Source of the DNA: Fistulifera solaris
Taxonomy: Eukaryota
NCBI GenBank assembly: GCA_030295235.1
Contig: AP026131.1
Span: 372,001 to 436,000 of the forward strand
Length of the DNA: 64,000 bases
Direction of reading: 5' to 3'
Shown: positions 16,184 to 61,697 of the stretch, one piece after another
How the letters are laid out: every line of letters begins with the position of its first letter
Position numbering within the stretch: the first letter of the stretch is position 1
Notes under the pieces: generated by a model
Seen by the model: the letters and a program-made list of their open reading frames with translations, nothing else
Databases searched by the model: none
What the model was told of the DNA's origin: nothing
Made by a program: the position numbers and the translations under genes

Positions 16184-16235
16184 TCATGACTGAAATGCAG
16201 TCGTGGAAAAAGTCGTCTTCACTTTGCGTTATAGT
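16184..16235 (-). promoter_or_regulatory. Bipartite ACTAT/CAAAGTG plus hairpin motif, copy 1
   Basis: Reverse complement reads ACTATAACGCAAAGTG..CCACGACTGCATTTCAGTCATGA; ~200 bp upstream of the ATG at 16437. Regulatory role inferred from position only. Confidence 0.55.
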
Positions 16236-16436
16236 AAACGAACGTAACCTTATTTATATTGTACCTGCTAGAAAACGATATTGATGCAGTATGTTCTTGT
16301 TTTATTACAAGTATACGGAGTACCGGTAAGGTCTTACATATTTTTGCGATGCGCGATGAGCTGGTTTATTTTCATTCTCATTATACATTTTGGTCACTTG
16401 TTGCTGTTGTACTGTGCCCGATTCTTGAAATCTGAA

Positions 16437-17183
16437 ATGAGATTTGCATTACCCTTGTTGGCTACGCTCTCCTCGGTTGCTGCTAGACCTTACAACGTTT
16501 CTGCCTTTGCGGTCTCGGGCAACGGATCTGCTCGACAAGTATACAATTTATCCAACAACAAAATGATGATCGATCCGGATTACCCAGGAACGGCTGTAGA
16601 ACGAATGACGAATGTGCGTGAACGAGTAGCATCGTTGAGTGCGGACGATTTGAACGCCAGTTGGCCGAATGTGCGTCGAAAGATTTTGTGGGCCGGTGGT
16701 TTGCGTGATTTACCCGATGCTGTTCCTGGTCAAGGCTATACAGGCCATTCCTTCAATGATTTCAATCATGTTGATTTGACTTGTATGATCGATCAAGCCT
16801 CGGATAATGAGAATGACGGATCGGTCAAAGGTATTGCGATTGGCAACCGACTCGGGAATGGCATCCGTGTTGCTTCCTTGCCGGAATTGGGTCCAGGTGG
16901 TTCCTGGTCGACTTGCGCTCTCGGTTGCAACAAAGATCCTCCACAAGATGTTGCACACATTCAATTTCAAGCACGAATAGCCTTCAAGTTGGTGTGGGTA
17001 CCGAACGAAAACTTTGATACATTTGTTCTCGTCGATGACGATGGAAATCTGTTAGCACAAGGCAAGCCCAGTGGAGGCGAATTACCATCCTTGCGCGAAC
17101 GACAAATGAATTATCGCATTGTGGCTGGTTCGAAATACGCCAAGGCGGCCGATCTAATTGCCAGTAAAGCAGCATCTGAATAG
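16437..17183 (+). CDS. Hypothetical protein with N-terminal targeting peptide
   Basis: Clean ORF with a signal-peptide-like start; GHSFNDFNHVDLTCM and DVAH motifs; family not recognised. Confidence 0.7.
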   Translation: MRFALPLLATLSSVAARPYNVSAFAVSGNGSARQVYNLSNNKMMIDPDYPGTAVERMTNVRERVASLSADDLNASWPNVRRKILWAGGLRDLPDAVPGQGYTGHSFNDFNHVDLTCMIDQASDNENDGSVKGIAIGNRLGNGIRVASLPELGPGGSWSTCALGCNKDPPQDVAHIQFQARIAFKLVWVPNENFDTFVLVDDDGNLLAQGKPSGGELPSLRERQMNYRIVAGSKYAKAADLIASKAASE

Positions 17184-17271
17184 GTAAACATTTCAATTAC
17201 AACCTTATTCACAAATTGATCATTAGCCTTTCAACGATATTATGAAGACGCAGCTGCAGATGTAAAACCCA

Positions 17272-18892
17272 TTAACGGTAATGAAGAAACGCGTTGCCAG
17301 TGCTAGTTGACTGACCGTTAGCAACAACTTTCATCTTGAGCGGCGGTTCCGATGAACCGCCCGTCACCATGATGCGCAGCAAGGATTCGACTCCCTGGAA
17401 GGCTGGGTCGTAAGACCATTCGTGCTTATCACCGTTCAAGTACAGAACGGGCATTTGATTGTTCAATTCTTGCGAAAGGAATGTATCGAGGGGACCGAAG
17501 AAGTGGAAATGTGCCGAAGTAGGATTGGCGTGACCAAATATGACGACACGACCGGTTTCACCAATCGTGGCACTGTATTGACGGATCAGCGCTTTGGTCC
17601 ACTCCACTTCTTCCGTCAAGCGCACTTCCCACTCCAAAGCGTCGTGAACGGGTAGGCCCACAATGTTCAGGCCAACAAAGAGCGTCTTCTTGTTGACAAA
17701 AGCAAAGTTATACGCTCGCCCCGGCTGTCGCACCACATCAAAGGTGTGATTCCAGTACCGTTTATCAAACTCGAGAAAATGCTTCTTCCAAAAGCCCAGC
17801 CCTTCTTCGGGATTGGAGCAATCGATCCACTCGTTGTCACCAATAATCACAAAGACGGGTACGGGCGATTGCTTGAAAATATCGGCCGCCAAGATAAACT
17901 CCTCTTCGAGACACAACGGGTTGTTCACGTCGTAGTTGCGAAGATCACCCACGTGAATGACAAATTCCGCATCCGAGGGAATGTTTCTAATTTGCACTTC
18001 AATTTCTTCCGCTTGTTGTGTCGAATACGGAACATCACCAATCGCATAAAAGGTGGTGACATGATCCGTAACTCCCAAATCAATTTTTGGGAATACAGGG
18101 TCCGACAAAGTCGGTAATGAAGGAGCCGTAGTCGCGAGAAATGTCGGTAAGCTCGACGCCGCTATTGATGGAGACAAAGACTCTTGAAGCGGAGGCTTGG
18201 ATGTTAATTCTGTCGCCAAAGAAGGAGCTTTGGAAGGTAATGTGGGAAATATTGTGGGGCGTGGACTGGATCTCGAGTCCACCGGAGCCACGGGGAGTTT
18301 TTCCGGTTCCGTCTCGGCTTGTTTCGGTGCTGGAGCTGGCGTTGCCACCAAACTCGCCGAGTTTTCTTCGCTTTTCGAATACACCATAAAGTAATAGACG
18401 GCGCCTCCGCCACCCGCAAGAAGAAGAAGAGCCAGTAATGCAATAACGGTCCGTTGTAAACAGAAACAACCACCTGATTTTGTTCGTTCCTGTGGGTTGA
18501 TGTCCGTTGCGGAGGAATTATCCGATGATGTCTCTAGTGTGCTATCACGTTGCTGCAAAGTACTCTTTTGACTAGCCACTGCTAAAGTAGCTGGTCGGTA
18601 TTCTGTTGCTCCGAGTCGATTACTCGACATGGCCGTTTGTGATGTAGAGAGCTGTTGCCGTTGCGGACCTCGTGTTACAACGTCGAGTTGATGCATATCA
18701 TTGAGGATCTGTCGCTGTGAGGTTGTAGACCGAACTGCCGTTCGATTGAGTGCTTCTGTAACTATTCGTGTCTGTAGAGCTGATTGCGTTTTCCATTCCG
18801 CCGGCGTTGAGCGCTTCCATGGTCGTCCACGGCTTTCGCGCAGTTGTCTCTGTTCGAGGAGCTGTTCGACCTTGCTGTGTATCGTTTTTCAT
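17272..18892 (-). CDS. Membrane-anchored calcineurin-like metallophosphoesterase; frameshift near 18700
   Basis: TM helix and Pro/Ser/Thr stalk, then GDVPY, HVGD, GDNE, GH and GDKH metal-binding motifs. Confidence 0.8.
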
Positions 18893-19623
18893 TGTCGTAT
18901 TGTCTCGGTTTCTCTGTTAATTTACAGTATCAAACACAATTTCTGAGTTCCGTGACCGTGATCCTATCACAATGATGATGATTATTTATGCAAGATAGCT
19001 CCTCCAAGGACGTTCGTTGGTTTTCAACGAAAGGAGCACGCGGGAGTGTGACGAGAGTGAATCTCCGTGCTCCGCAAAACGGATCGGATTGCGGTCGTTG
19101 GTCGAGCTGGCAGGGGAGAAAAAAACGCCCATGTCGTGCCAAAATTCAAACTTTAACAAGGAATTCATAGTGGAAAGTAGCCTATCTTGTTTTGTTAGAA
19201 AAATTCTGTTTCTATTTCCTATGTAAGGAACACGAAAGTCGAGCCAGCCAGGTAGGTGTAATCGTTTTAAACCGACCAACGGTACTGGGTTGATACAAAA
19301 CTGTACACACCAAAATTCATGTTTTGTCGAGTTTGGAGGAGTTTCGGGAAAGGATGCAGGATGCTCTTGCACGAATGCCGCGCACCTCCAGTACAGTACT
19401 GTAAGGTTACTCCGAGTCGTCCGGCGCGTGGACGAGCGAAAACCTTGTCTTTATAATCCTTAGTTTTCGTGACTCCAGCTAGGTTGTTGCACACTCTCAT
19501 GGCAAGCCACAGTATTATCAAAGCGTGTACAACGACGGCTCGCACGAGCACCTACGATTGAATCAATGGATACTTGCGAAGCCCGTCAACTAAATTTTGC
19601 AATTACCTGGTACTCCGTATATT

Positions 19624-21408
19624 TCAACAACGCTGATGACAAGACTCCAATCGAATGTCAGTCCCCAGATATTTTGTCCAAGTTAATGTTTCGTCATCGT
19701 CCTGTAATAACGATAGACCTTTGCGGATACCGTTGAAGATCGCTTCTAAATCTTGGGCTGCATGCAAAGCTTTACGGTAGAACGGATCCTTGTGATGAAT
19801 TTCGGACGACGTCGTAGCTTTTTGAAAAAAGGATCGTCCTTTGACCATTTGAACCAGTTTTAAAACTAGAGCACCTTCTGAAACTTTCTCCCCAATATAT
19901 TCATCGCTCGTTGTAATGCGATCAACTAACCCAATACTCAGCGCATCATACCCAAGCCAGATATCTCCAGTAGCGATATCTTCAATGGCGGAAGCGACCA
20001 TTGGCCGACAGGCACTGACATGTAGTTTGAAGGCAACGTGCGTCTTATCTATCATCTGTTGAACTTTCGCCATACCATCCCGCGTAACATCACCAATCAA
20101 TCCGACGGGGCTTTGTCTTTGCCGCCTTTGAAAACCAGTGGACGTATTCCCCATCCTTCCAAAGTCTTTTGAATGTTAATAGTTTGACCGAGAACACCAA
20201 TGCTCCCCAACACAGCGAATGGAGCTGCCAATAAACACCCTGGACTTGACGCGCATGCTATCATGTAGCCACCTGCAAGTGAAGGTGTGAGATCAGGTTT
20301 CGCTCGCGACAAAACTAAGTACTCCCAGCAATGTACTTACCAGATGCCGCAACTTTGTCCACGCATATAGTAACTTTCAAACCCTTTCTTCTCAACCGAA
20401 GAATTTGTTGTGATGCAGAGAATAGTCGGCAGCGCTGCCTCCTTGTGATTCGAGTAAGACAACAACTTCCTGAAACCGTGGAGAATCATTTGAATAAGTT
20501 TGTGTCTCGTAGCTTTTGATCAAAAATGACACTTCATCTCGCATAACATCCATTCTACTGACAGAGGAATCCAAGCTTGTCCAATCCATTACAACAATTG
20601 CTTCGCTGAAAGGGGTCTGGCTTCCATTTAGTGCAGGCTGCATCACATTGGGCATGGCGGCTGTCACATTTGAGCCAGCCTGACTCGGCAAGGTGTTCGC
20701 ACGCGTGGCCTTCCTATACGCAGCCAAGTCTTTACGATATCGCTCATTAATGTTTTCAAATGTAAAATGCTGTTTGATGGACGGTAAATAAGCGGAGCTC
20801 TCGGGTGACAGGTATTTCGACAGAAAAAATGCCAGCACCGGGTTCGAATACCGCCCCATCAACAGAGCAGCTGTCACAGGAGAAACAGAGTTTCCATTCT
20901 CATTGGGTTGCTGCAAGCGACGAGCTAGTGCGACCACAAAAACAAACTGCAGAATACGCATAGGAGAGAATGCAAGAACGCGCCGTGTCGATCCAGTGTC
21001 AGGATTCGTCATCGGCTTGGATATCAGACGCCAAGATAATCGAAGAATATCTTTGCGGAACAATGCCACGGCAATGAGAATTGTTAATTGGATCTTGTTT
21101 GTGCGTACGAATCGTGTGATATTATTCAGTTTGAATTTTTGAAGACAGCTGTACGGCTTCAAAGCATTCGAAATAACACGTTCGTTTTCACTCTTCTCTG
21201 CTGGGGTCTTGGATAGCTTTGAGGTCTTCTTGAGAGACTTTTTGGATTTCTTTGTTGATGTAGCGGCAGTTTTATTCTGGCTTTCGCTATAAGACGAAGG
21301 CAGAGAGTCGACCGCGTCGCCGCTTTTGTCTGAGGCGCTTAGCACCGGCGTAGTACTTCCAACAATTGTTATCCCCAAAATGATCCATAATTTTCTGAGA
21401 TGCTTCAT
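19624..21408 (-). CDS. Peptidase S49 (SohB/SppA-like); intron ~20272-20340 and frameshifts
   Basis: LLESQGG, spliced VAASG|GYMIA, GSIGV, ATGDIWLG and GLVDRI motifs. Confidence 0.8.
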
Positions 21409-21565
21409 GTTCGCAATGTGTATGAGTGAGAAAACGACTTTCAGATCTATACAATGACGGAATAACAATGATAGCGAAAGCGGCGACGATGATAATGGAT
21501 AATGCGGAGAAAAAAACGAGAGCAAAAATGTTAACATAGAGACGCAAAAAATACCAGGTACCGGT

Positions 21566-22277
21566 ACTATGGCTCAAAGTGTTGCTAAACTTTACCATGA
21601 CTGCACTTCAGTCATGAGTCGTCAAGATACTTCCGAGACTCCGAGATTTCCTAGACAAGCTGCTGCCATATTTTCGATCGTTCTGCTAGCTTATTGTCTT
21701 TCTGAGAATAGTTTCACTGCCAGCATTGTTTCTAGTGCAGGAAAATATAATTTGCGTTGAAGAGCTTTTCAAGATCGTTGTCTTCCGTTTTTACTATGGC
21801 CCAAAGTGATGGTTCAACGAATCCACGACTGCATTTCTGTCATGAGACACGATATTATTTTCCTCGACAAGCTGCTGCCATATTTTCGATCGTTCTGCTA
21901 GCTTATTGTCTTTCTGAGAATAGTTTCACCGCCAGCATTGTTTCTAGTGCAGGAAAGTATAATTTGCGTTGAAGAGCTTTCGAATTCTATGTCTTCCGTT
22001 TTTACTATTGCCCAAAGTGATGGTTCAACGAATCCACGACTGCTTTTTTTCTGTCATGAGACACGATATTTTCGAGACAGACGGCTGCCTTATTTTCGAT
22101 CGTTCTGCTAGCCTAATAAACTACAATTGTCTTTCTGGGAATAGTTTCACTGCCAGCATTGTTTCTAGTGCAGAAAATATTTTGCGTTGAAGAGCTTTCG
22201 AATTCGTTGTCTTCCGTTTTTACTATGGCCCAAAGTGATGGTTCAACGAATATCCACGACTGCATTTCTGTCATGAG
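21566..22277 (+). repeat. Tandem array C, ~3.3 units of 211-227 bp, beginning with bipartite motif copy 2 (21566-21617)
   Basis: ACTAT(G/T)GC(C/T)CAAAGTG recurs at ~21566, 21793, 22004 and 22223. Confidence 0.9.
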
Positions 22278-22712
22278 TAAAATATGTTCATGCTTCATGC
22301 GAGACGCGCAGCAACGTCGTCTTTCAACTGTTCACCTAGAAAGACTTAATCCACGACACAGACCCCCTTCATGGTTGCATTTAGACTCTAGAACCGAAAC
22401 AGCAACATCTATATCTTGGACAATGGAGAGTCGCATCCTCAAACTGTCTTGTTGTGAAGAGTCATCTAGGTTCAGCAATAATCAGTTTGCAGGGAGAGAT
22501 GTGGATGGCAAAAGGGAAAGACCAAGACGGGCACTGGTAATATTTTATTGATATCATAAATGGATTTTCTAGAGCCATTTATGGCGTAATTCACATTAAG
22601 ACAAACCTTATGAGAATATACTATTAGCGTGATAAACTCCGGTCCGGCCTCAACTGATGCAAAGCAAACTTTGTCGTTGTCTAGCACAGTAATGGTTCCA
22701 ATGTTTGAATAG

Positions 22713-23699: not shown

Positions 23700-24217
23700 A
23701 CTGCAAACAAGGTGTATTATCAGATGTTCTAACGAGAGGCGGATCGATTTTGAATGCGATGAAAAATCCTTACAGCAATGTGTCAGGAAATATGGCATCT
23801 TCAAACGGTTCGGATATTTTTTGCGTCTGCAAAAAATGGAAACTACGTCATCATTCGACGGACTGGGACATCTGCTCGTTCGAAAAACTAAGGTGAAGAT
23901 TCAACTAAGATTACCATGGTAACGGATAACGAATGATTCATCCTCTCACTAGTTGTGGTAGATCAAAATGACCATTGATTGCTTGCGCAAGCATGTGATC
24001 AAATAGCTGAGCTGAAAATATTAACATAAAGAACTTAACCATTAATGTAGAGAACCTTGTTGTGTTGCGGACCTTCGCCAACGCCTTGCCAATCAAGACT
24101 TTAATAAACACAACTTGTAGCATTGCCTTGGCGTTTCATGATATAAAGCAACTTGTAGAACTAGGTCTGGTATTCGTATCGTTGGAACCCTGTATCGCAC
24201 CCAAGCAACTTGAACCT

Positions 24218-27589: not shown

Positions 27590-28680
27590 ACGAAAGGAAA
27601 TGGAAATTCCAGAAATTCTGGAGGTCTTATTTATGATCATACAGAAATTCTGGAGGTCTTATTTATGTTCATACAGAAATTCTGTGGTGATCCAGAAATT
27701 CTGGACCAGTTGTTTCGATACGAACGAAAAGCTGTGCTCGTTCCAGAACTTCTGGCAATGGTGTTTTAAATCATAACGAATGCAAATGCGCGTTCCAGAA
27801 TATCTGGAAATGTTAATTTGGATCATAACGAAAGGAAGTGGAAATTCCAGAAATTCTGGAAATCTTATTTCTGTTGATACAGAAATTCTGTGTTGGTCCA
27901 GAAATTCTGGACCAGTTTTTTCGATCCTTACGATAAGCTGTGCATGTTCCAGAACTTCTGGCAATGGTGTTTTGGATCATAACGAAAGCAAATGCGCATT
28001 CCAAAATTTCTGGATATTGTTATTTGGATCATAACGAAAGGAAATGGAAATTCCAGAAATTCTGGAAATCTTTTTCTGTTGATACAGAAATTCTGTGGTG
28101 GTCCAGAAATTTTGGACCAGTTGTTTCGATCCTCACGAGAAGCTGTGCTCGTTCCAGAACTTCTGACAATGGTGTTTTGGATCATAACGAATGCAAATGC
28201 GCGTTCCAGAATCTCTGGAAATTGTTATTTGGATCATAATGAAAGGAAGTGGAAATTCCAGAAATTCTGGAAATCTTATTTCTGTTGATACAGAAATTCT
28301 GTGTTGGTCCAGAAATTCTGGACCAGTTTTTTCGATCCTTACGATAAGCTGTGCATGTTCCAGAACTTCTGGACAGGGTTGTTTGGATCGTAACGAAAGC
28401 ACATGCGCGTTCCAGAATTTTTGAGAATTTCTGGAAAAATGTGTTTTGGATCATAACGAAAGGAAGCGGAAAATCCAGAAATTCTGGAAATCTTATTTCT
28501 GTTCATACAGAAATTCTGTGGTTGTCCAGAAATTTTGGACCAGTTTTTTCGATTCTAACGAAAAGCTGTGCTCGCTCCATCACTCGCCCACATTTTCTGG
28601 ACACGTCAAAACATCACCCGCCCACATTTTCTGGACAATTGAAAATACCACGTGCCTGGATTTTTCTGGCCAAGTTGAAA
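27590..28680. repeat. Tandem array F, ~4.7 units of ~205 bp with about five CCAGAAATTCTGG dyads each
   Basis: A(A/C)ATGCGC(G/A)TTCCA recurs at ~27784, 27990, 28195 and 28400; lies between divergent genes. Confidence 0.95.
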
Positions 28681-30684: not shown

Positions 30685-30738
30685 TCATGACTTAAATGCA
30701 GTCGTGTTGAAATATGAACGACACTTTGGGCATATAGT
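30685..30738 (-). promoter_or_regulatory. Bipartite motif copy 3
   Basis: Reverse complement reads ACTATATGCCCAAAGTGT..CACGACTGCATTTAAGTCATGA; immediately beside array E. Confidence 0.55.
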
Positions 30739-30801
30739 GAATACGGAAAACGACGTTTCATCTATACGTTCCAAGTCAGTGTGAGTTTTTTGGAAAAATT
30801 C

Positions 30802-32206
30802 CAATGAGAACTCATAAAAGTCTTAAACCGATTATTCATTTTGTTCTATCCGAGCTTGTGCCGTTCCATTATTTGTTTTCAGTAGTGGGAGCGTTACTGC
30901 AATCTGGTCGCGGTCTCGTACAACCAACACACTGATCCTATAGTGACAATAGCAGTCAACGATCCGGACGCTCTTCGAAGGTGTAAATCAAGACATTGCG
31001 TGTCAAATGAGAATTCGTAAAAGTCTTTAAATTGATTATTCATTTTGTTCTATCATTTATGGCCGAGCTTGTCGCCGTTCCATTCGTTTTCTTTAGTTGG
31101 AAATTGGAGCATGACTGAAATCCAGTCGCGGTCTCGTACAACCAACACACTGATCCTATAGTGACAATAGCAGTCAACGATCCGGACGCTCTTCGAAGGT
31201 GTAAATCAAGACGTTGCGTTTCAAATGAGAATTCGTAAAAGTCTTTAAATTGATTATTCATTTTGCTCTATCATTGGTGGCCGAGGTTGTCGCCGTTCCA
31301 TTCGTTTTCTTTAGTTGGAAATTGGAGCATGACTGAAATCCAGTCGCGGTCTCGTACAACCAACACACTGATCCTATAGTGATAATAGCAGTCAACGATC
31401 CGGACGCTCTTCGAAGGTGTAAATCAAGACGTTGCGTGTCAAATGAGAATTCGTAAAAGTCTTTAAATTGATTATTCATTTTGCTCTATCATTGGTGGCC
31501 GAGGTTGTCGCCGTTCCATTCGTTTTCTTTAGTTGGAAATTGGAGCATGACTGAAATCCAGTCGCGGTCTCGTACAACCAACACACTGATCCTATAGTGA
31601 TAATAGCAGTCAACGATCCGGACGCTCTTCGAAGGTGTAAATCAAGACGTTGCGTTTCAAATGAGAATTCGTAAAAGTCTTTAAATTGATTATTCATTTT
31701 GTTCTATCATTTATGGCCGAGCTTGTCGCCGTTCCATTCGTTTTCTTTAGTTGGAAATTGGAGCATGACTGAAATCCAGTCGCGGTCTCGTACAACCAAC
31801 ACACTGATCCTATAGTGATAATAGCAGTCAACGATCCGGACGCTCTTCGAAGGTGTAAATCAAGACGTTGCGTTTCAAATGAGAATTCGTAAAAGTCTTT
31901 AAATTGATTATTCATTTTGTTCTATCATTTATGGCCGAGCTTGTCGCCGTTCCATTCGTTTTCTTTAGTTGGAAATGGGAGCATGACTGAAATCCAGTCG
32001 CGGTCTCGTACAACCAACACACTGATCCTATAGTGATAATAGCAGTCAACGATCCGGACGCTCTTCGAAGGTGTAAATCAAGACGTTGCGTTTCAAATGA
32101 GAATTCGTAAAAGTCTTTAAATTGATTATTCATTTTGTTCTATCATTTGTGGCCGAGCTTGTCGCCGTTCCATTCGTTTTCTGTAGTTAGGTTGGAGCAT
32201 GACTGA
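30802..32206. repeat. Tandem array E, ~6.4 copies of a 218-bp unit
   Basis: Exact 218-bp period (31040, 31258, 31476, 31694, 31912); inner units differ by a few SNPs. Confidence 0.97.
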
Positions 32207-32224
32207 GTACAAATAGCACAGGGT

Positions 32225-32713
32225 TTCATCCATTGTCCATTGGGTCAGTTGTGTTTCTCTAACTTGTATTAGGGATTCGGGAAAGGACGTTAAAATTCTG
32301 CCTCTCAGTACAAGTTTCTCACGTGAGAGCCTACCGCAATGCAGAATTTTAACGTCGCTTCCGGTTCTCTTGTAGGGATAGGACGTAAGCATAGTAAATT
32401 CTAGCCATTTTTTAGCACAGTTGGTTACTCTCCGGTTCACGAAACCGGAGGGGCGAGGTTCGACACGGTGGTTGATCTTGGCGCCCAGCAGAGTCCTGAG
32501 ATGAGCGAGGACCCCCGGTCGTGTCTGAATCAGACAGGAGCCCCTCTGTTCGCATGATTCACATGTTTGACCTGGCAGCGGTTCGGTGTTCGGTGGAATT
32601 CATCCATTGTCCATAGGGTCAGTTGTGTTTCTCTGACTTGTATAAGGGATTTGGTCCTCTTGTAGGGAAAGGACGTAAGACGTAAGCATAGTAAATTCTA
32701 GAGAGCCATTTTT
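32225..32713 (+). mobile_element. tRNA-headed SINE-like (Pol III) element with a duplicated 3' segment
   Basis: Box A TAGCACAGTTGG (32413-24), stem CTCCGGTT/AACCGGAG, box B GGTTCGACACG (32457-67); direct repeats 32225-32412 and 32599-32713 both end in GCCATTTTT. Confidence 0.55.
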
Positions 32714-33004
32714 GTAGGAGGGTCGTCGTTCCCAGCTCTAACCTTAGCAGCTGCTAATTACTATGGAATAGAGAGCAGTGTCCTTGTTGTCTCAGCCGGA
32801 TAACAATTTCCTAAGTAGTATTTTTCCAGCGGGTGCCGGTTAAAAATAGCGGAAACAAAAAGATGGGAGATGCGGCGGGAGACGACGATGGGAACCCTCG
32901 GCGCTATTATCGTCGCGACAGCATCATGCAGGCATTGCCCTGTCGCAAGATTTGTCATTGCGATCGACTTCCCTGCTTCTTATAAAGTATTTTACAAAGT
33001 CAAA

Positions 33005-34575
33005 ATGGAGACGCAAGCAAAGATACTGAAAGATGAACCTTCTTTGGAGATCGTTTCAAACGATGAGCTGTCGTTGATATTGCAGGCATTCCCATCGTCT
33101 CGGTTTTATCCCAGCTTTGTATTTGGTAAGGGTGAACGCTTCATGTATAAACTAAAAACGAGAGCTGGAGACTTTCGACGATGTTGTTGGTTGGGAAAAA
33201 TATCGATTACGAACTTGCCACATGGTTTGAAAATGAAACTATCCTCTCTATGAGTAAGGGAACACTCTGGGAATTCGCGGGACGCCCGTTTATGTTTCGC
33301 ACTTGGCGATAGTGGGGAAACACGTAACGCAGAACTTTTGTTAATTGCGCAATCTTTGGGAAAACGGACGCCGCAATAGCCCGAGGCAACGTTTTTGTTG
33401 TCTTTGAAACATTTCTCAGGATTTGGCGCATCGCCGTGGTCGAATACTATGACGATCATACTCCTACTGAACACGATGAGTTTAGCTTCGATGTCGCCTC
33501 CCTCTCGCCACAGCAGTTGACGCATATACCGACGAATCCCCATCGCATGATCGAGTTAGAGACAGGTGTCTGGACTCCAGAACAATCCGTCATCCTCGCT
33601 TCAAGGCCGTACACTATGACTTTGAAGTTAACGAATCGTTCTTGGGGATGGGGCGGCATTAATAATTTCGAATTTCAGGACAAAGGCGCTGCATTTGTAG
33701 CCGCACTTGAAAAACGGCAACGCTCTTTTGGCTCTCTTCGATTGCCATGGACCCGGAAGACATGTTTATCAGCAGTGACAATCTCAAAAAAAATGTTGAA
33801 ACTGGATGTCTTCCACACCTTTTCTTCCGATGGACTGAACAAGGAATACCTGCTCCTTCCCTTCTCCACCAAGGTGCACACTCTCCACTGCGTGATCGAC
33901 GCAGAGCGTTATAAGCCAAAACATTTCGACAACCTCGACATCGTTGCAAGCGAGCTTCATTTGAAAATGTGTAATTTTTGTTACGCGAGAGAATCTTCTG
34001 CATTCTCTCTTTCATCGACTCTCTGTATTGGGCCACTTCGAGAAGTTCGGGGATTCAATCGGATGTTGAGGATAATTCATGGATGGATGCCGATGATTTT
34101 GACGACGAAACTTCTGAAGGCATTGAACGTCTTGTACAGACATTGATCCATGCAATCAATGCCAATCCGAACTTGTCATGTTTGGATTTAGGCTCTGCTG
34201 AATATCTTTTTAATTTGTCTCCCAAACTACTTGACAATCTTTTGCTCGCTTTTGAGCAGCATGAAGGATTCGCGCACGGTATTTATAGACTGCCGGCGAA
34301 ATTTCAACTATCCCGCATTGGAGACGTTGCTCTCACGTAATCTTGACATCACAGTGCGCGACGGTTCAGGAAAAAGGATCTCAAACGGCAAAACCATCGA
34401 ATGGCTGTATCTGAAGAATGGATCAGCAAGACTTGTGACAAAGTCTGTTCCAGTGCGACCACAATTGCTTGCGACTGCGCTACTCGAAATCGCGTCCAGA
34501 AACTTTCATTACTCTGCATTCTTATTGTCAGAACATTCTGATGTTCTATGCGAATTGATTGAAGGTATATTTTAG
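33005..34575 (+). pseudogene. Disrupted RNI/LRR-like hypothetical gene
   Basis: Several overlapping frames with stops or frameshifts; LIHAINANPNLSCLDL and ALLEIASRNFHYSAFLLSEHSDVLCELI segments. Confidence 0.55.
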
Positions 34576-35044
34576 ACGAGCAGAGCTGACAAGGGTCGTG
34601 CAAAGCACCGATAGACATCCTCGTGAATGTCAGCTAAAGTGTTACATTCTACACCGAAAAATTCACCGTAACACTAACGCCTTACACTCGTAATACATTA
34701 GTTCTGACTATTGTGAGCAATTCTTTTAAGTCAAAAATGCAGAGCGGACAGATGAAGCTGGGGGTGAGTTAGCAGTCTGGCTCTACCGAATATGTAAAAC
34801 AGACGGAAATTCTGTTTGATGTACCTTTCCATAATTTTTCCACGACGACGACGACGACGACGCTGCAAACGATCGTCATTTTATTGAAAGTCTATTCTTT
34901 TGATAAATCACAACTCTTGGTCATTTTATATCATTTAGTAACATATCTCATATGCGTTGAGACTGAAATAGACGAAAAACTTGTGCTCAAGACAATCATC
35001 AGAATAATAAGTTCGAAAAGGCGCGCCGTGCTCAGCAGTCAAAC

Positions 35045-42448: not shown

Positions 42449-42503
42449 ACTATGATCCAAAGTGTAGATTACTTTTTTTCGCGTGACTGCCTTTCAGTCA
42501 TGA
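42449..42503 (+). promoter_or_regulatory. Bipartite motif copy 4
   Basis: ACTATGATCCAAAGTGT..CGTGACTGCCTTTCAGTCATGA between the divergent COG2 and IPK genes. Confidence 0.55.
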
Positions 42504-46251: not shown

Positions 46252-46794
46252 GATTCTAATAATGTAAAAGAGAGAGAAAATGAACAGTATGTCGTTTCAA
46301 ATCACCTCACGAAAAGATGTTTTTGCCAACAATGCACGCAACCTTTCTTCTCGAAGCAAATGAAGTCGAACGTATTCTTCGCTTCCAGGCCTGCAACGCG
46401 GTGCGATAAGGATGTGGATAGTGTATCCCACCGCGATACAGTACACTTTGGCTTATAGATAAATATTATGATGACGTGGAAATCGTTCTCGAGAGAGGAT
46501 AGTGAATCGTATTCCTTCAATCGACGCTCTCTAGAGAGACTCTCTTCAAGACTAGACCCTAGATCGTAACATTCATCTTCGTTTTTAGTTAATTTCTCAT
46601 TTTAACAAGGAATTGATTCGGGAAACGTACTAAAGTAGGCCACTTTTTTAATCTGCAGTAGTAAACTTGCAAACATTACGAGGACTGAATGAAGATCTTT
46701 TGAAAGAGCAATCGTATGTTGTGGGCAGTGCAATAAGTATTCTCTACAGTAGTTTTTCTTTCCTAAGCAGCAATTGATTTGTTGAACGCCGATC

Positions 46795-53566: not shown

Positions 53567-55186
53567 ATGCATGCTGTTATCAGTGTCGGGTTTCTTTTGC
53601 TCGTCGGTGTGCAACAATTTCATCTCCTAGTCCCTCCCGATCAATCATTACATCCACAATCACACGATCCCTGCCGCGAGAATTGCGGTTCCTTTCTCGG
53701 CCTCTTTCCCAAATACAAATTATGTCACGACAGTACATCTCAATCTTATTGTACAGCGTTTCCTCGCTGGCATCAAAGAGATCCTTTTGTATCTTGCGGT
53801 GACTGTCAGCTTGTCGAGGAGTCATCCACCGAATTATCATTGAATGGAGACCAGGATGAAAAAGGCATTCTCGTCGATTTTCACTGGGAAGATGCTTGTT
53901 CGGATTCGCCTTATGATTATGTGGGAACCTTAGTTTTTTGCGAGCAGGAAAACGGGACGTTTGGCTATCGATCCTGGAATGATGCGCTCCCTTGCGGCTC
54001 GTCATCACCGCTTCTACGATTGCGACCCGGTTTTGCGTATCAGTTGCGACTCATCAATGAGGCCAGCGAACCCACCAATTTACATCCGCACGGACTCTAT
54101 GTCTCGGGAGATGGGAATGCCGATGACATTACTCGCTACGCTGGACCCGGAGAATGTTTACTCTTCAATTGGACCCTCTCCGAGGATCACATGGATGGAA
54201 CCTTTCTATATCACGCGCATCGACACAACATTACCAATCATCAAGTCAGTGGAGGAGCCATCGGAATGCTGTTTGTCGATACGGCTACTCCGCAAACCCG
54301 ACCTTCATGGGTCGACCGTGAAAAGCTTTTATTTATAAAATCGTCCAAGGACGAAGATTTTGTCAACGGCATGCCCAAGCTGCATGTACCCTTGATAGCC
54401 AATACCTGGTATCGTTTCCGCATAGCCGTCGGAGATGCTCGGGGTAAATTGCGCAGCCTCCGTTTCGATCCAGAACAATGTGAGGTTCGTCTCGTGGCCG
54501 CCGATGGAGTTTGGCGCAGTCGCGGCGCGGCGGCCCCCGCGTTTCACTATGAGGTGACCGGATCGACTCGCATGGATTTGGCCGTGGCTTGTCAATCGTC
54601 CAGTGGTATCTGGTATCGTGTGAATTCGACGGACGATGCAGAACCTATCGTTGTATTGGACGTATCCGAAGGTCCTGCGGAACTCAATGCGCTAGAAGAA
54701 TGGATCCCCCCTCGACCTTCTCATTTGCAAAGTATAGCAAACTTGGACATGGACGATACTTGGAACATTACCATTTCGAAGGAAACTGGAATCAATGGCT
54801 ATCTATACGATCACGAACGACCCATTGAGACTTTTGAATTTGGTCAGTACCATCAATGGCGATTGTACAACACGGACCGCCATCCGTTCCATCTACACAT
54901 CTATCATATGCAAATTGTAACCCCGGGCGGATGCGGCAACATTTTTGAAGAGGGTGAATGGTACGACACAATCAGTGCCGATGCAGCTGTTACCGATCAC
55001 TGTACCGTCCGATTTCGTATGAACGCCTTTTCGGGACGAACCGTTTTGCACTGTCATCAGTTGAGCCACGAAGACTTGGGTGTGATGGTGTGGACGGACG
55101 TGATTGGGGGCCCCGACAATAGTTTTTTGCAGGTGGGGAGTCGAGAAACAGTGTTTTGCGAAATCTGTGCGCTGCTTTTAATTTAA
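53567..55186 (+). CDS. Multicopper oxidase with N-terminal signal/anchor
   Basis: All four copper motifs: TNLHPHG, FLYHAH, HPFHLH and HCHQLSHEDLGV. Confidence 0.92.
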   Translation: MHAVISVGFLLLVGVQQFHLLVPPDQSLHPQSHDPCRENCGSFLGLFPKYKLCHDSTSQSYCTAFPRWHQRDPFVSCGDCQLVEESSTELSLNGDQDEKGILVDFHWEDACSDSPYDYVGTLVFCEQENGTFGYRSWNDALPCGSSSPLLRLRPGFAYQLRLINEASEPTNLHPHGLYVSGDGNADDITRYAGPGECLLFNWTLSEDHMDGTFLYHAHRHNITNHQVSGGAIGMLFVDTATPQTRPSWVDREKLLFIKSSKDEDFVNGMPKLHVPLIANTWYRFRIAVGDARGKLRSLRFDPEQCEVRLVAADGVWRSRGAAAPAFHYEVTGSTRMDLAVACQSSSGIWYRVNSTDDAEPIVVLDVSEGPAELNALEEWIPPRPSHLQSIANLDMDDTWNITISKETGINGYLYDHERPIETFEFGQYHQWRLYNTDRHPFHLHIYHMQIVTPGGCGNIFEEGEWYDTISADAAVTDHCTVRFRMNAFSGRTVLHCHQLSHEDLGVMVWTDVIGGPDNSFLQVGSRETVFCEICALLLI

Positions 55187-55510
55187 CTTATTCATAAAGT
55201 TTTATTTTTGAAGTGTAACTTAACAAAAGGCGAGTATTGTTGGTGCAGTATTTTCGTTTAGATGATTAACGAGCATTATAGATCTATTCACGTTTCACGT
55301 TAGCCAGAGTTTAGTTCACGACTGGGCAGCGCACGACCTTCGCCCGTCCTTGTACGGCGATACGATGCGATGAACCTCGATGAAAAGCATGAAAAAAAAC
55401 ATCGCGCCACAAAACGCAATGAACACTTAGTCAAGATAAACATAGACTACTTGTAACTCCTCTCGCAATCAATTGTACTTTAAAGTTCATTCCTTTGTTC
55501 TCCTTTTAAA

Positions 55511-55916
55511 ATGAATGCGATTTTCCAGCAACTGAATTATACAATTCGACAGCGCGCAACGGATACAATCTGTTGGCTGCAGCAACAACGTCACATGTCC
55601 AAGTATTTGAGCAAGGCGGCTAAGAAGCGATTAGTGCTGACAACCAAACGTGCCCACAAAGGCTTCTACAAAGGAAATGGAGCAACTAAAGAAGGAAGAC
55701 TGACAAGCAAAGGGAAATTTATTGTCGACCCTTTAAGACGATTGGAGTTAGTAATTCCGGATTTGACAGGTTTCAAAGTACGTCCCAACGCATACATTAT
55801 TTTGTGATTCGTATATACTCTAATCGCTCATCTTCACTTCTCAGCTAAAGCCATACATTGCCCGAAGTGTCCCGAAAGTACCTCCTGAGCAGCAGCGAAA
55901 CCCCATCAGTCGCTAG
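55511..55916 (+). CDS. MRPL41: Mitochondrial ribosomal protein mL41; intron 55778-55845
   Basis: LTTKRAHKGFYKGNG...G.F...PDLTGFK|LKPY. Confidence 0.9.
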
Positions 55917-56234
55917 GCCTCGTGTCGAAACCAGGGTGAATAATGGTATATATGAAGCGTCTTAGGGAACCCGTTGGACAATGAAACAATTAAACACCAC
56001 CCATTATTCTAAAAAAATCCGAATTTGTGTTTAGAATTTACTTTTAGGTATGATGCTATTCAATGAATTGAAACCGACACTGTTGAGGCTTTAGTGATGG
56101 TCAAGTGCGATTGCAACAAGAGCAATTACAGTGATAACAATGCCATAAACAACAACTTCGGAAGCATCAAGAGCATTAAGCATATCATGAGACGAATTTG
56201 AAACAGAATTGCCCCTTTTAGGACTTGTTGTAGA

Positions 56235-56783
56235 TTTACGTTCCCAGAAAATCTGGGAGATTGGTATTTACACTGGTCCAGAAAATCTGGACGAAATGCC
56301 CTTTCACATTATCAGAAAATCTGGAAGATTGGTATTTACACTTGTCCAGAAATTCTGGACAAGTTGCATTATCAGATTCTCAGAAAATCTGGGAGAGTGG
56401 TATTTACCTGGTCCAGAAAATCTGGACCATATGTATTTTCACGTTCCCAGAAAATCTGGTTGATTGATATTTACACTGGTCCAGAAAATCTGGACCTTAT
56501 GTATTTTCACGCTCCCGGAAAATCTGGTTGATTGATATTTACTTTGGTCCAGAAAATCTGGACCATATGTATTTTCACGCTCCCAGAAAATCTGGTTGAT
56601 TGGTATTTACTCAGGTCCAGAAAATCTGGACCTTATGAATTGTCACGTTGACAGAAAAGCTGATAGACTGATATTTACTCTGGTCCAGAAAATCTGGACC
56701 GTATGTATTGTCACAATCCCAGAAAATCTGGTTGATTGATATTTAAACTGGTCCAGAAAATCTGGAGATGTTGCATTTTCACA
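56235..56783. repeat. Tandem array G, ~16 copies of a 34-bp CCAGAAAATCTGG unit with an alternating 68-bp dimer
   Basis: Dyad at 56244, 56278, 56312 and onward; linkers alternate TTGATTGATATTTACACTGGT and ACCATATGTATTTTCACGCTC. Confidence 0.95.
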
Positions 56784-56955
56784 GTTAACTACAATGCTGT
56801 CTGGTCGTCGCTCGTCATCGGCATCCTCGGCGCTCGGCGGCGCATCTTTTACGTCGCGTCGTTAAAAGACACAAAAATGGAGACGAGCTGTACGCTGTAC
56901 ACAACCTTTCATTTGAAGGTGCTCATTGACGATACACTTGCAAAACGTTTACACC

Positions 56956-57405
56956 ATGCTCGAGAAAGTCAAAGCAACTATAGGGAAGGCCTTGTCCGTA
57001 AATTCAAAACCCACGGAGGAGACGTTTTCTGAACTACCCGATGTTCTCATCTGGTTTCGTGCTGTTTTGGGTCTCACTTATGGCATATTCATGGGATTGA
57101 AGGGGATCCGCAGCGGACCAGCTTTGGTACAAGCTGTGAACCTTATTGTTTTTATCCCTTTCATGTACTCCCGTTTCTATCTTGGTGTTGAAATGGATCA
57201 TTTTGCGTCGCAAATTTATTTTTCGGGCACATTCAATGCCCTCGCGCTGTTCTTACTGATATGGATCTGTCTGTACACGGCGGAGCACGAAGAAGACGAA
57301 AATCAATTGGCGGCTTTATTAGTATCATCGAGCAAGGTCGGAGATTTAAGACCAGATGCCGCCGTCCCATTGATGGAGGCAGTTGCCGAAGAGTCCGAAT
57401 TTTAG
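56956..57405 (+). CDS. Rab5ip-family (RAB5IF/OPTI-like) membrane protein
   Basis: DVLIWFRAVLGL..G..G, and FNALALFLLIWICLYT. Confidence 0.75.
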   Translation: MLEKVKATIGKALSVNSKPTEETFSELPDVLIWFRAVLGLTYGIFMGLKGIRSGPALVQAVNLIVFIPFMYSRFYLGVEMDHFASQIYFSGTFNALALFLLIWICLYTAEHEEDENQLAALLVSSSKVGDLRPDAAVPLMEAVAEESEF

Positions 57406-57924
57406 AGAAGCACCGCGTCACTGATGAATAGATTATTATGGTGTCGTGGGTTAGCGCAGAAGATTGAGAATTTTTTAGAATATGCATGTGGCATCTTTAA
57501 TTTTGATAAACATGAGAGTAAACGTCTGTTCTCTACACACCACGTCACTTTGTAATGCTAGAAGAAATACAGGTACATTCCCCGTGATCATCATCTTCAG
57601 GAAAGAGGAAGTGGATGGTGAAGGTTAACTAGTGTATTCTCTTCAAGCCTTAGCAATTGTTCTAGCCTAAAGTAGCATTCTCTAGTATGCGACCATAACG
57701 GAGGACGGACAGACACAAGATACCGATTGCCATCCAACATCAATATTTATTCCTAATTTTCCAACAAAAATTCTTTATCGCTATTTGGCTATTATCCTGT
57801 TAATGGCAATAAATCGATATCAATAGTATCGATTACTCTCCTTTTTTCGAAATAACAGAACAATCTAAGTAGCAGAAGAAAATCCGAGCGGATTGTGCAG
57901 TTTGTCCGAGGAAAGTGTTAGAAA

Positions 57925-58757
57925 ATGCCGATCGAAGTTAACAAGAGTGCGTTTGCGGCGGTAGACGCTCTCTTCGGCAGCGAAGAACGATCCGAAACAA
58001 AGAAACAGCAGCAAAAGCCAGTCATTGAAACGTCACAAAGATTGGGAGTCGGAGCGAAGGCTACATCAAAGAATCCTGACCCTGTCTCGAGTACAATTCT
58101 TCAGGTCGGTCGCAAAAGGCAGCGGGAGAACGAAGGCCATGTAGAAGAAAGCTTGCTTGAAAGTGTAGCTCGTGATGATAGTGACGAAGAGGATTTAGGA
58201 AGAACAGCCATCGATTCAAACAATAAAGTTGTCGCTACTTCTTCGGCTGTAATTGTAGATTCGTCAACGAAGAAGCGAAAGAAGGGAAAGAAGGAGCGAG
58301 CATTGAGCAAGGCGAACGGAGAGCAAGGAGTAAAATCTGACAGCGCACAGCCAGACAACAATCTATCACAAGAGAATAGTTTGAAGCAGAACGAAGACGC
58401 GGAACAAGAATTGAAGGGCGGTAAAGCGTCGACAAAAGAAAGCGACGAAAAATTCGCAGTAAGCAAAAGAACATCTACAAAGATCAGCGTGAAAAGAAAC
58501 CGGAGCACCTTATCGTTGGTAGCAAGAACTACAAAGGTAGACCTCTGACAGCCGAGACACGCGCTAAATTGAACTTGCCAGCGACCAAATCCTCTTCGAA
58601 TCTAAGCTTTTCCGGGACGTGGACTGGAGAAGGTGCGAAAGCAAGCGAAGGCAAAACCGAAGAATCTCTTATCGTCGAAAAGAAAGAAGCTCGCCCGTCG
58701 AAAGAATCTTTGAAGAAAAAACCGTCCAAAAAGCCCAAATTTAAGAACTTGAAATGA
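57925..58757 (+). CDS. Lys-rich low-complexity hypothetical protein; frameshift near 58430
   Basis: RLGVGA motif; continues in the second frame ([16 protein letters not shown]...[14 protein letters not shown]) to TGA at 58757. Confidence 0.6.
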
Positions 58758-58784
58758 AGACCGGTAGTAAATAGAAATAGCTTT

Positions 58785-59207
58785 TTAGTCGAGTCCTGCA
58801 TCCGCTTCTCGTTCGAGCCGCTCTCGTAGTAATGCCACAATTGCTTTGTGTGTGCGGCGCTCGAGTTTCTGTAGTTTCGGAAGTATTTCTCGTTTCAGAT
58901 CAGCATTGATCTTCTTGGGTGCAGCGGCAACAACGTCCTCGTCTCCGCGAATTTCCGGTAGTTCTGCTTTCGCCATTTCTAATGCTTTTTCTAGGACGCT
59001 CTTTTCCTGACTGGTTGCTTTGATCCTCTTAGACGCAGGTTCGTCCGAAGTGATATCTAGGGTGGGATCGGATGGTGTGTAGTTGCGAAACTGTACAACG
59101 TTTCTTTCTTGATTGCTGTCATAGTTATTGGTCACCGATGGTTGTTTGTTTCGTCCAGCTTTTGCTGACAGAGCAGCCAGTCGCGCCTTCCGTTCGTCCA
59201 TGGTCAA
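58785..59207 (-). CDS. CCDC12: Cwf18/CCDC12 spliceosomal protein
   Basis: ERKARLAAL, FRNYTP and APKKINADLKR...KLERRT..AI..L.RERL. Confidence 0.88.
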   Translation of the reverse strand: MTMDERKARLAALSAKAGRNKQPSVTNNYDSNQERNVVQFRNYTPSDPTLDITSDEPASKRIKATSQEKSVLEKALEMAKAELPEIRGDEDVVAAAPKKINADLKREILPKLQKLERRTHKAIVALLRERLEREADAGLD

Positions 59208-59522
59208 GGTTGTCGTAAATTGTTTTTGTATGATTAACAGCCTAACGGTACTTGTAAAAGGAAGGAAATGATGTCAAAATGATTAGAGACGGTTTATAGT
59301 TGCGATTTGCGATGTGTGTGTGCGGTTTTTGCGATGCGGTTTTCGCACTGCATGCGATGCGCGGCCGCAATAAGTTTCTTTTGACAGACGCACCGGTTCT
59401 CATTCGCTTCATTTTTTCGATTATTTATTTTCGCATTGGCAGCAACAAAATATAGTCTAGTCATCATCTGCATGACAACACATGCTTCTTGCTGCAGACT
59501 CTTTTAATCATACATCAACCCG

Positions 59523-60380
59523 ATGAATATAATAACGTGGATAGCTCATGCCGAAGCGAATCATCCGAAGCATTTGAGCTGGAGGCATCCTTCCGCTGTC
59601 CTCATCGTGCACTATGGTGTTGTGTTTTCCGTCACTTTTTCACTTCATGATTGGATCTTCAATTCAAACCACGACGTCCCTGTTGAAGATTCAGCCGTCG
59701 CATGGAATGTGATACGGTTTGTTCTTGCTTATGCGACTTGGTTACTTGTCTGGAGACTACTCTTTTGCGAGCCAAGGGTCTTCCGTTCCTCTATACTTTA
59801 CGAGTACTGTTGGCTTTGTAACGTGACTCTCGTTCTCGGTGCCGTATCGCTCGCGTTACAGAGGCCCGCCATAACAGCAGCCTGCTGTGTCACTGTGGGT
59901 ATTGATCAGTTGCTCTGGTACGTCGACTTGCTGGTGTACTTTCTCTCCGGAAAATTCCCGATTGGCGTGGCCGGTTACTTGTTCTGGGAAAATACTTCCT
60001 GGTCGACTCGCATTACGTGCACGCATCATCTGTGGACCATTCCTCTCTTTTTATACGCTATTCGACGACTACCGACCGTCGCTTTGCCTCTGTCGGCTGT
60101 GATCATGGTGCTAAACGTCACGCTGAGTCGCTGCATGACGCCCGCGGCTATTGAAGTGGAATATAGGGAGAAAGGCACGGCGAAGTTGCTTCACAAATAT
60201 TTGAATGTGAATCTTTCTCATGCTCTCTGGAAGGATATCAAAATATCATGGCTGCAAATCAACTACGACAATCCTCCAGCGCTACTCTATTTGTGGCGGT
60301 TGTTGTGGCGATGGGAGGCATTCAACGTACTCGTTTTTGGAGTATTGCGTCTAATTTGCTACTTAGTATTTGGCAAATAA
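59523..60380 (+). CDS. Multi-pass membrane hypothetical protein
   Basis: Clean 285-aa ORF with ~7 hydrophobic segments; WLCN, DQLLW, HHLW and NVN motifs. Confidence 0.7.
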   Translation: MNIITWIAHAEANHPKHLSWRHPSAVLIVHYGVVFSVTFSLHDWIFNSNHDVPVEDSAVAWNVIRFVLAYATWLLVWRLLFCEPRVFRSSILYEYCWLCNVTLVLGAVSLALQRPAITAACCVTVGIDQLLWYVDLLVYFLSGKFPIGVAGYLFWENTSWSTRITCTHHLWTIPLFLYAIRRLPTVALPLSAVIMVLNVTLSRCMTPAAIEVEYREKGTAKLLHKYLNVNLSHALWKDIKISWLQINYDNPPALLYLWRLLWRWEAFNVLVFGVLRLICYLVFGK

Positions 60381-60498
60381 TGATAAATCAATAAAATCTA
60401 TTTATAAGCAGGAACACAAGCTGCCATAGTGGACCAACTCAATAACGACAACATCGATGCATCGACGTTACAACAAACAGTCGCAAATCGGTATGCAA

Positions 60499-61306
60499 TT
60501 AACAACAATTAGGCGCCTTAGGAAGACCCGCCCCCGTGGATAGGTCGATGCCTTTCTTTTCGTCTTTGTCACTGCCGCTCGCAACTCTTTGCCGAATCAG
60601 CTCTCCTGCCATGGTCAAGAACGCTTCCTCGACATTCTTTGCCGATTTCGCCGACGTTTCTATGTATGGAATGCCCAGCTCCGCGGCGAATTCCTGAGCC
60701 TGTTCTGTCGTCACTACTCGATCCGCTGTTCGATCGGATTTGTTTCCGACCAGCAATTTGACTGTACCTTCCGCAGCATAACGATTGACTTCTTTCAGCC
60801 AGTCATTGACATGGTCAAACGATTCGGTGCTTGTAACATCGAACACCATAATGATGCCATCTGCTCCGCGATAATAAGCAGAAGTAATGGTACGGAAGCG
60901 CTCTTGTCCAGCCGTGTCCCAAATCTGGAGTTTCACTGTCTTCTTGTCGAGTTTTACCGTGCGAAACCGGAAGTCAACGCCAATTGTACTAATATACGAT
61001 TCCGTGAACGCATCGTCCTACAATCAGAAGAGAAAACGAGTTGAGAAGGAGCGCGAAAAATTGCTAGCCCGCGCCCAGCGATGATGTAACGATCATAGAA
61101 TTCTATTTTCTATTTCGCAAGAATTAAAACAGGCCGCCGCGAACCAGGTAACAAACGAAAGGGTCGTCATTGTTCATTGTTGCGTAATGTCTACTCACCG
61201 CAAAGCGAAGTAACAGGCACGACTTTCCCACACCGCTGTCACCGATCAAAACAAGCTTGAAAAGATAGTCATAATCTCGTTGTTTGGAAGTGGATCCAGG
61301 AGCCAT
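60499..61306 (-). CDS. RAB1: Rab1/Ypt1 GTPase; intron ~61018-61198
   Basis: [53 protein letters not shown] and C-terminal CC. Confidence 0.97.
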
Positions 61307-61643
61307 GATGATAGATTTTGCTTTAAGTAGATCTGTTTTTCTCGTGCATTTGGAAAGGAGGTCGTCGAATAATAGCATACAAGTACCTGTACCAGGTACT
61401 GTAGCGGCGCGTTTGCCTTTGCGTTTGCGTTTGCGCGCACCGCTCTCGTACTGGTAATAAGGTTACAACAGGGAAGGGAACGTCCAACGGAAACTGAAGC
61501 TGGTTTTTTCTTAGTGATACTAAAGTTATATGCTCTGTAATGTTAGTTTAAGAAAGTTTGGAAACCATTCCGACGTGTAATTGTTTAAGTGTGAAGAGTC
61601 TTTAGTTCTACTGTATGAGCCATGTGTGATGTGTGGTACCGGT

Positions 61644-61697
61644 GTATAGCCCAAAGTGTATGCCACCTTCGCCACGACTGCTTTTCATCAGTCATGA
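61644..61697 (+). promoter_or_regulatory. Bipartite motif copy 5
   Basis: GGTACCGGT-GTATAGCCCAAAGTGT..CCACGACTGCTTTTCATCAGTCATGA, ~340 bp upstream of Rab1. Confidence 0.5.

What the first reader, a model, noticed from the sequence alone, without database searches (positions are those of the whole stretch)
16184..61697. Fixed-spacing bipartite motif (ACTAT..CAAAGTG plus CAYGACTG-N5-CAGTCATGA hairpin) in five intergenic regions
Seen at 16184-16235(-), 21566-21617(+), 30685-30738(-), 42449-42503(+) and 61644-61697(+). Every copy is 52-55 bp, with the two boxes conserved and the spacer free to vary; a half site lies at ~46443-46459. In four of five copies the ACTAT end faces a gene start ~160-340 bp away (16437 gene, S49, COG2, Rab1), and array A has the same polarity towards TFIIE. 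The copy near SKA1 is the exception. Copies 2 and 5 are both preceded by GGTACCGGT. Conserved boxes with a variable fixed-length spacer are typical of a protein-recognised DNA site. Inference: a promoter element, origin or mobile-element end that I do not recognise, and which seeds the arrays above. This is my best candidate for an undescribed system in the window.
Basis: partly seen in the sequence, partly recalled or inferred. Interest (0 to 1): 0.8.

Follow-up and report, generated by a model that had tools for sequence, protein, structure and literature searches.

The report
Diatom repeat with conserved two-box core
A 55-base, two-part DNA motif found between genes throughout a diatom-like genome is the long-lived core of an old repeat family; it probably marks a protein-binding site, but it is not a directional promoter and no function has been shown.

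Summary
The motif is real: 5 window copies, 255 strict matches genome-wide, 0 in the control. It is the core of a ~220-bp repeat unit. A younger master form reads head-core-spacer-core-spacer-core (~570 bp); local arrays arise from it. It has no terminal or subterminal inverted repeats and no target-site duplication above chance, and no mobilising enzyme was found. The palindrome is conserved as sequence, not as a paired stem. New here: in 19 of 76 loci a second well-kept core sits ~220 bp away across a spacer decayed almost to noise; 5 of 5 such spacers were private to their locus; and a tRNA-derived SINE lands beside cores in 14 of 24 events (background 13%). Best reading: a repeat-derived, orientation-independent protein-binding module kept by selection at many loci (0.5); rival, a purely selfish repeat (0.3). 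The scan found this family before on other pieces of this genome (e1-7529157, e1-7527745).

The parts
16184..16235 (-). single core (box I, linker, palindrome)
   Evidence: palindrome arms 18/18 identical in the homoeologous C10 site, box I decayed there
21566..22278 (+). four-core array, period 211-227 bp (cores start 21566, 21793, 22004, 22222), spacers weakly related to the family consensus
   Evidence: spacer found only at this locus; C10 has a two-core version
30685..30738 (-). single core next to the 218-bp array, palindrome side facing the SKA1-like gene
   Evidence: present in C10
30888..32206 (-). young 218-bp x 6.1 array (97% matches) of a variant unit, five intact cores and one decayed; absent from C10
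32197..32716 (+). two tandem pieces of a tRNA-derived SINE-like repeat abutting the array's palindrome; one piece interrupted by a ~70-bp inverted-repeat element (32286-32356). Not part of the family but inserted at it
   Evidence: tRNA-Arg-like head called at relaxed threshold in 2 of 3 copies tested, not in the window copy
34799..34814 (-). 'head' motif, the fixed left end of the master element, here separated from the cores by a ~4-kb C9-only block
42449..42503 (+). single core in a divergent gene gap
   Evidence: decayed copy at the C10 site
46440..46459 (-). box I only (half site), 9.7 bits; membership uncertain
61644..61697 (+). single core upstream of the Rab/Ras-family gene
   Evidence: palindrome arms 16/18 identical in C10

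Best explanation
The motif is the core of an old, self-spreading non-coding repeat, and it works as a double-stranded DNA binding platform. Shown: the family is built of ~220-bp units; a younger master (head + three cores with position-specific linkers, ~570 bp) was copied to many gene gaps, and single units or unit pairs were then amplified locally into arrays. Shown: the most invariant bases are GACTG-N5-CAGTC, with box I held 13-14 bp away. Inferred: a homodimeric protein binds the inverted half-sites and a second contact is made at box I. Inferred: at many loci the cores and their ~220-bp spacing have been kept by selection long after the spacer decayed, so the host uses them as an orientation-independent chromatin or regulatory mark (about one nucleosome plus linker per unit; that equivalence is my inference, the repeat length of this organism's nucleosomes is unknown to me). 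Inferred: bound or open DNA at these sites attracts SINE insertion. The copying mechanism is unknown; lack of TIRs and TSDs and a fixed left end are most like rolling-circle copying.
For: Partner cores with box score >=21 of 30 across spacers with z<=7 in 19 of 76 strict loci; uniform decay to that spacer level gave at most 20.4 in 40 simulations, shuffles at most 19. 5 of 5 such spacers matched only their own locus, plus one homoeologue at 73-74% in two cases. In those two homoeologues, fetched through the spacer alone, both cores survive: 68 of 72 palindrome-arm bases identical (p=0.035 against an ascertainment-adjusted 0.87). 124 of 149 successive core distances under 1 kb fall at 185-260 bp, 4 in the shoulders 100-185 and 260-400; spread is 11 bp in 30 pairs with unrecognisable spacers and 10 bp in 29 young pairs. 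The commonest state of one stem pair is a C-A mismatch and changes are almost all one-sided. SINE events within ~210 bp of a core or head: 14 of 24, against 13.4% of non-coding bases within 300 bp; 12 of the 14 in the same orientation.
Against: No binding, footprint, expression or knockout data. All cores were found by their sequence, so their conservation is partly built in. The direct C9/C10 comparison is inconclusive: boxes 76-89% identical, linkers 66-75%, flanks 76-81%, which one-sided ascertainment could produce; several sites are decayed or missing in one subgenome (14 of 22 C9 cores had no aligned counterpart, 7 of them extra array units). About 6 of the 30 'old' pairs belong to a separate ~236-bp subfamily found at several loci, so replaced spacers can also come from other masters. 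The private-spacer search missed a known homoeologue, so its reach ends near 70-75% identity. The second, independent SINE set alone gives only 4 of 11 events (p=0.049). Neutral indel control gives a similar 12-bp spread at lower divergence, so the spacing argument is only suggestive.
Confidence: 0.5

Rival explanations
1. A purely selfish non-autonomous element (rolling-circle-like). Cores are conserved only because a mobilising enzyme needed them in each of many low-copy masters, helped by gene conversion among the many cores; the host does not use them.
For: Defined master with fixed left end: 24 of 30 head loci have a core within 160 bp on the same strand; 24 of 37 canonical elements end at or within a core; presence/absence and array turnover between subgenomes; a second multi-locus subfamily; linkers swapped between homoeologues at two sites, as conversion would give.
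Against: 5 of 5 old spacers are locus-private; no multi-copy Rep/helicase, tyrosine recombinase or Replitron domain found (several of these searches had blank controls); no subTIR, TIR or TSD above null in 28 head-bearing elements.
Confidence: 0.3
2. The cores are sequence-defined replication origins (ARS-like), spread by the repeat.
For: Intergenic only, no polarity to genes; about one element per 16-18 kb over 594 kb (35 elements); bipartite fixed spacing. A preprint proposes motif-defined ARSs in a diatom (10.1101/2021.11.10.468027, passages).
Against: The published motifs match a different, young repeat; no core hit at 8 bits or more at the motif position in 20 of 20 loci. No replication data. 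Sites are often lost in one subgenome.
Confidence: 0.1
3. A directional core promoter, or an snRNA-type promoter driving a short RNA from the head.
For: Only 1 of 98 elements lies in a convergent gap, against 10.8% of gap bases; median distance to a coding start 350-390 bp.
Against: No polarity (25 vs 27, p=0.89); no core within 500 bp upstream of 2 U6 and 2 U2 genes; convergent gaps are short and largely 3' UTR, so any insertion is depleted there (inference).
Confidence: 0.05
4. A small structured RNA gene family.
For: An 8-bp stem can form.
Against: Stem is weak (-2.9 to -8.8 kcal/mol for the whole core as DNA); consensus mismatch and almost no compensatory change; no Rfam match.
Confidence: 0.03

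Closest known systems
CERP2/CELE2 m1m2 motif pairs bound by HIM-17 in Caenorhabditis (PMC9757741, passages seen)
   Same: Fixed-spacing motif pair seeded in thousands of copies by a non-coding repeat; motifs better conserved than neighbouring sequence; turnover between lineages.
   Different: Those are MITEs with the motifs in inverted repeats and proven promoter activity and a known binder; here no TIRs, direct ~220-bp units, no binder or activity known.
HINE/DINE-1, non-autonomous Helentrons (PMC4067079, passages seen)
   Same: Non-coding, dispersed, internal tandem repeats, palindrome near one end, no target-site duplication detected.
   Different: No 12-15-bp subterminal inverted repeats, no TT flanks, palindrome repeated in every unit, no autonomous partner found.
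Dispersed satellite monomers with a conserved box, such as the CENP-B box (recalled, not from a call)
   Same: Short box outlasting the rest of a ~200-bp unit; local arrays.
   Different: Mostly 1-3 units in gene gaps across all contigs listed; defined master with head and ordered linker types; no centromere link shown.
Proposed centromere/ARS motifs of Fistulifera solaris (10.1101/2021.11.10.468027, passages seen)
   Same: Short dispersed motifs in an allopolyploid diatom; loose resemblance in the AAAGT...CGACTG stretch.
   Different: A pattern adapted from them hits a different, young, near-identical repeat (28 matches) that does not score with the core model.

Membership tests
HINE/Helentron | 12-15-bp subterminal inverted repeats | tested here: not met
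   no inverted match between ends above 5-11-bp low-complexity chance in 28 elements; none in the consensus
HINE/Helentron | palindrome 8-35 bp from the 3' end | tested here: inconclusive
   palindrome lies at the right end in 19 of 37 canonical elements but also in every internal unit
HINE/Helentron | insertion into TT, flanked by Ts | tested here: not met
   flanks at both ends vary; no T run at the right end; true left boundary uncertain by ~50 bp
HINE/Helentron | autonomous Rep/helicase partner | tested here: inconclusive
   PF14214 0 (blank control), PF05970 0, PF21530 one hit
Helitron (canonical; features recalled) | 5' TC, 3' CTRR after a hairpin, A|T target | tested here: not met
   no constant terminus of this kind in either orientation
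MITE | terminal inverted repeats and target-site duplication | tested here: not met
   direct-repeat lengths match the null; no TIR; copies are 20-25% diverged, which limits TSD detection
Crypton (features recalled) | tyrosine-recombinase partner | tested here: inconclusive
   PF00589 0 (control rang), PF16787 and PF12550 0 with blank controls
Replitron | Replitron HUH partner; short terminal direct repeats | tested here: inconclusive
   PF21859 0 with blank control; paper reports none in diatoms (PMC10288648); no terminal direct repeat above null
snRNA-type promoter | same elements upstream of U6/U2 | tested here: not met
   0 of 4 genes
Directional core promoter | fixed polarity and distance to gene start | tested here: not met
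   using coding starts from a codon model (108 of 130 calls agreed with the training set, 2 opposite), not mapped TSSs
Co-opted repeat motif pair (m1m2-like) | motifs conserved above flanks | tested here: inconclusive
   supported; not resolved
Co-opted repeat motif pair (m1m2-like) | bound by a host factor, with activity | not testable with these tools
   needs footprint, pull-down, reporter
ARS/replication origin | supports episome replication; nascent-strand peak | not testable with these tools
   no data

The most novel reading that the evidence does not exclude
A diatom has domesticated a repeat into some thousands of sequence-defined, ~220-bp-phased chromatin landmarks (origins or nucleosome-positioning/insulator sites) read by a dedicated DNA-binding protein, which a retrotransposon machinery also uses as an insertion beacon.
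Probability: 0.22. Interest if true: 0.8.

Novelty: new variant of a known kind. Interest (0 to 1): 0.52.

Why it matters
Sequence-defined cis-elements for chromatin organisation or replication are barely known in diatoms (own knowledge; the preprint says consensus motifs had not been found before). A common 55-bp core with a simple architecture is directly testable by episome and footprint assays and could serve artificial-chromosome design. If it is only a selfish repeat, it is still an unclassified element type, and the work shows that motif searches in this genome readily return repeats, which bears on earlier ARS motif claims.

Tried and rejected
No tRNA or Rfam hit in the window or in L091/L096. 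Pattern scans found nothing in metagenome contigs or viral contigs and one isolated bacterial match without box I context; records of near relatives may be left out, so range across diatoms is untested. RNA: no listed holder is on record as RNA; three guessed-RNA contig sets covered only 6-8 of 30 bins and none of the cores, which is no evidence either way. Exact protein look-up gave nothing. The first homoeologue search was swamped by another satellite. ORF clustering near elements showed no shared transposase-like protein (1,484 ORFs); the two ORFs in the C9-only block have no Pfam hit. The 'X' segment seen on both sides of three elements is a separate repeat, not an LTR. The extra 190 kb of C9 could not be paired with C10, so homoeologue tests rest on ~200 kb plus a few loci. 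Papers: searches listed no description of this element; the library lacks most subscription journals, and the preprint's supplements were not seen.
Full report
Setting. The window is G000:C9:372001-436000 of a 51.7-Mb assembly. It has a collinear partner on C10 at 81-92% identity per block, so the genome has two subgenomes. Genes are eukaryotic housekeeping types. That it is a diatom is inference: earlier scan notes say so, and a pattern adapted from motifs published for an allopolyploid diatom occurs in it.

Observation. The window has 5 hits against 0 in 60 simulated windows. The genome has 255 strict matches and 1,035 strand-matches to the palindrome alone, with 0 in the reversed controls. 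A profile found 35 elements of 20 bits or more in 594 kb of contiguous C9/C10 sequence; extrapolated, about 3,000 in the genome, from two contigs only.

Anatomy. The motif is the core of a ~220-bp unit. In 754,506 bp sampled there were 273 cores in 147 elements, half of them multi-core; 124 of 149 successive distances under 1 kb are 185-260 bp. A 16-bp head occurs 51 times exactly, and 24 of the 30 fetched have a core just downstream on the same strand. Seven such elements give a ~570-bp consensus, head-core A-spacer-core B-spacer-core C, with linker types that tend to follow position. Right ends fall at a complete core in 19, within a core in 5, at box I in 6 and mid-spacer in 7 of 37 canonical elements. 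In 28 head-bearing elements I found no TIR, subTIR or TSD above the null. Across 296 cores the most invariant bases are GACTG (277-294) and AGTC (275-284); gap 1 is 4-5 bp in 268, the linker 13-14 bp in 242, the loop 5 bp in 229. The third stem position is most often a C-A mismatch and changes are nearly all one-sided, which points to sequence reading on double-stranded DNA and not to a selected hairpin.

Relation to genes. Using a codon model trained on homoeologue-supported exons, 0 of 131 elements lie inside coding sequence. The ACTAT side faces a start in 78 of 113 cases and the hairpin side in 84 of 115; in tandem gaps the split is 25 to 27. One of 98 is in a convergent gap. So the element prefers gaps that contain a gene start but has no polarity. 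No core lies upstream of two U6 and two U2 genes.

Are cores kept by selection? Among 68 adjacent pairs, spacer identity to consensus runs continuously from 0.83 to 0.37 while cores stay at about 0.5-0.87. In 19 of 76 strict loci the partner core scores 21 or more of 30 across a spacer with z of 7 or less; uniform decay to that level never reached 21 in 40 simulations. All 5 old spacers searched were private to their locus or homoeologous pair. In the two homoeologues found through the spacer alone both cores survive, 68 of 72 arm bases identical against 73-74% in the spacer. Against this: the C9/C10 comparison cannot separate selection from ascertainment, includes some misaligned rows, and shows decay or loss at several sites; about 6 of the 30 'old' pairs belong to another multi-locus subfamily and some are young local arrays; linkers in old pairs also keep their type (0.69), which conversion among cores could explain; and the neutral indel control has a similar spread.

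Insertion hot spot. A ~300-bp repeat beside the window's 218-bp array has its own target-site duplications, 5' truncations and a tRNA-Arg-like head. Of 13 top-scoring copies, 10 lie within ~210 bp of a core. Of 12 further loci, 3 are at an element by profile; four of the 12 share one flank and were counted as one event; two more were classed from coordinates (one near, one in another satellite). Total 14 of 24 events against a background of 13.4% (p=3e-7), but 4 of 11 in the second set alone (p=0.049). Eight sit in or within about 20 bp of a core, with no common target sequence, which fits a position cue such as bound protein, open chromatin or frequent nicks (inference).

Mobilising enzyme. 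None found: Helitron, Pif1, tyrosine-recombinase, Crypton-type and Replitron domain searches gave nothing multi-copy, several with blank controls, so absence is not shown.

Comparison. It works most like repeat-seeded motif pairs later used by the host (PMC9757741, passages), and its dispersal resembles HINE/DINE-1 (PMC4067079, passages), but it fails the terminal tests of MITEs and HINEs. It is not the published centromere/ARS motif set. Replitrons were not detected in diatoms (PMC10288648, passages). Eight literature searches (other papers seen as listings only) gave no description of it. Earlier scan notes report the same family on other pieces of this genome; one leaned to a mobile element, one to a promoter-like module. 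My tests reject the directional promoter and add the master structure, the private-spacer result and the SINE association.

Verdict. Real, abundant, unclassified repeat whose core probably is a protein-binding site. Host use is more likely than not excluded but is unproven: 0.5 kept by selection as an orientation-independent module, 0.3 selfish only, 0.1 origin, under 0.1 promoter or RNA. Interest 0.52.

Noticed in passing
L167:958-1500, L169, L179, L183 (loci): The repeat matched by a pattern adapted from the published diatom centromere/ARS motifs is young and near-identical (19 of 20 loci) and in 4 of 20 lies directly behind ORFs that look like the end of an RLE-type non-LTR retrotransposon (my reading; no Pfam hit). 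The published motifs may be retrotransposon 3' ends.
   Followed up: partly
window 32197-32716; L096-L106, L192-L203: tRNA-Arg-like SINE family ending in a T run on the sense strand, with target-site duplications and 5' truncations.
   Followed up: partly
window 9595-9871, 12540-13180, 27602-28664, 56207-56850: 34-, 52-, 68- and 206-bp arrays built on a CCAGAAWWTCTGG-type palindrome; the head motif and the 70-bp inverted-repeat element share its CAGAAWT start, and 34-bp ladders flank some head-core elements (L079, L081, L086, L090).
   Followed up: no
window 30764-34748: About 4 kb present on C9 and absent on C10: array, SINE pieces and an ORF pair (33328-34575) with no Pfam hit.
   Followed up: partly
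window 3634-4404: 224-bp array before TFIIE with no core hit, while the matching C10 gap holds two cores with a SINE between them.
   Followed up: partly
window 46397-46459: The half site is followed by a different GC-rich inverted repeat, largely kept in C10, upstream of a gene that looks like dihydrolipoamide dehydrogenase.
   Followed up: no
window 145-266 and 1143-1272: 20-bp TAGAGAGAAATT-type arrays in inverted arrangement about 900 bp apart.
   Followed up: no
L107:3713-6417: 672-bp x 4 array whose unit carries a two-core pair with an old spacer.
   Followed up: partly
L171, L185, L105, L127: A further ~200-bp dispersed repeat ('X') with a (GT)n tract, often next to these elements.
   Followed up: partly
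window 18721, 19119, 20106, 20416, 21509, 21546: Single-base indels between the assembly and short-read contigs, probably assembly errors that break reading frames.
   Followed up: no
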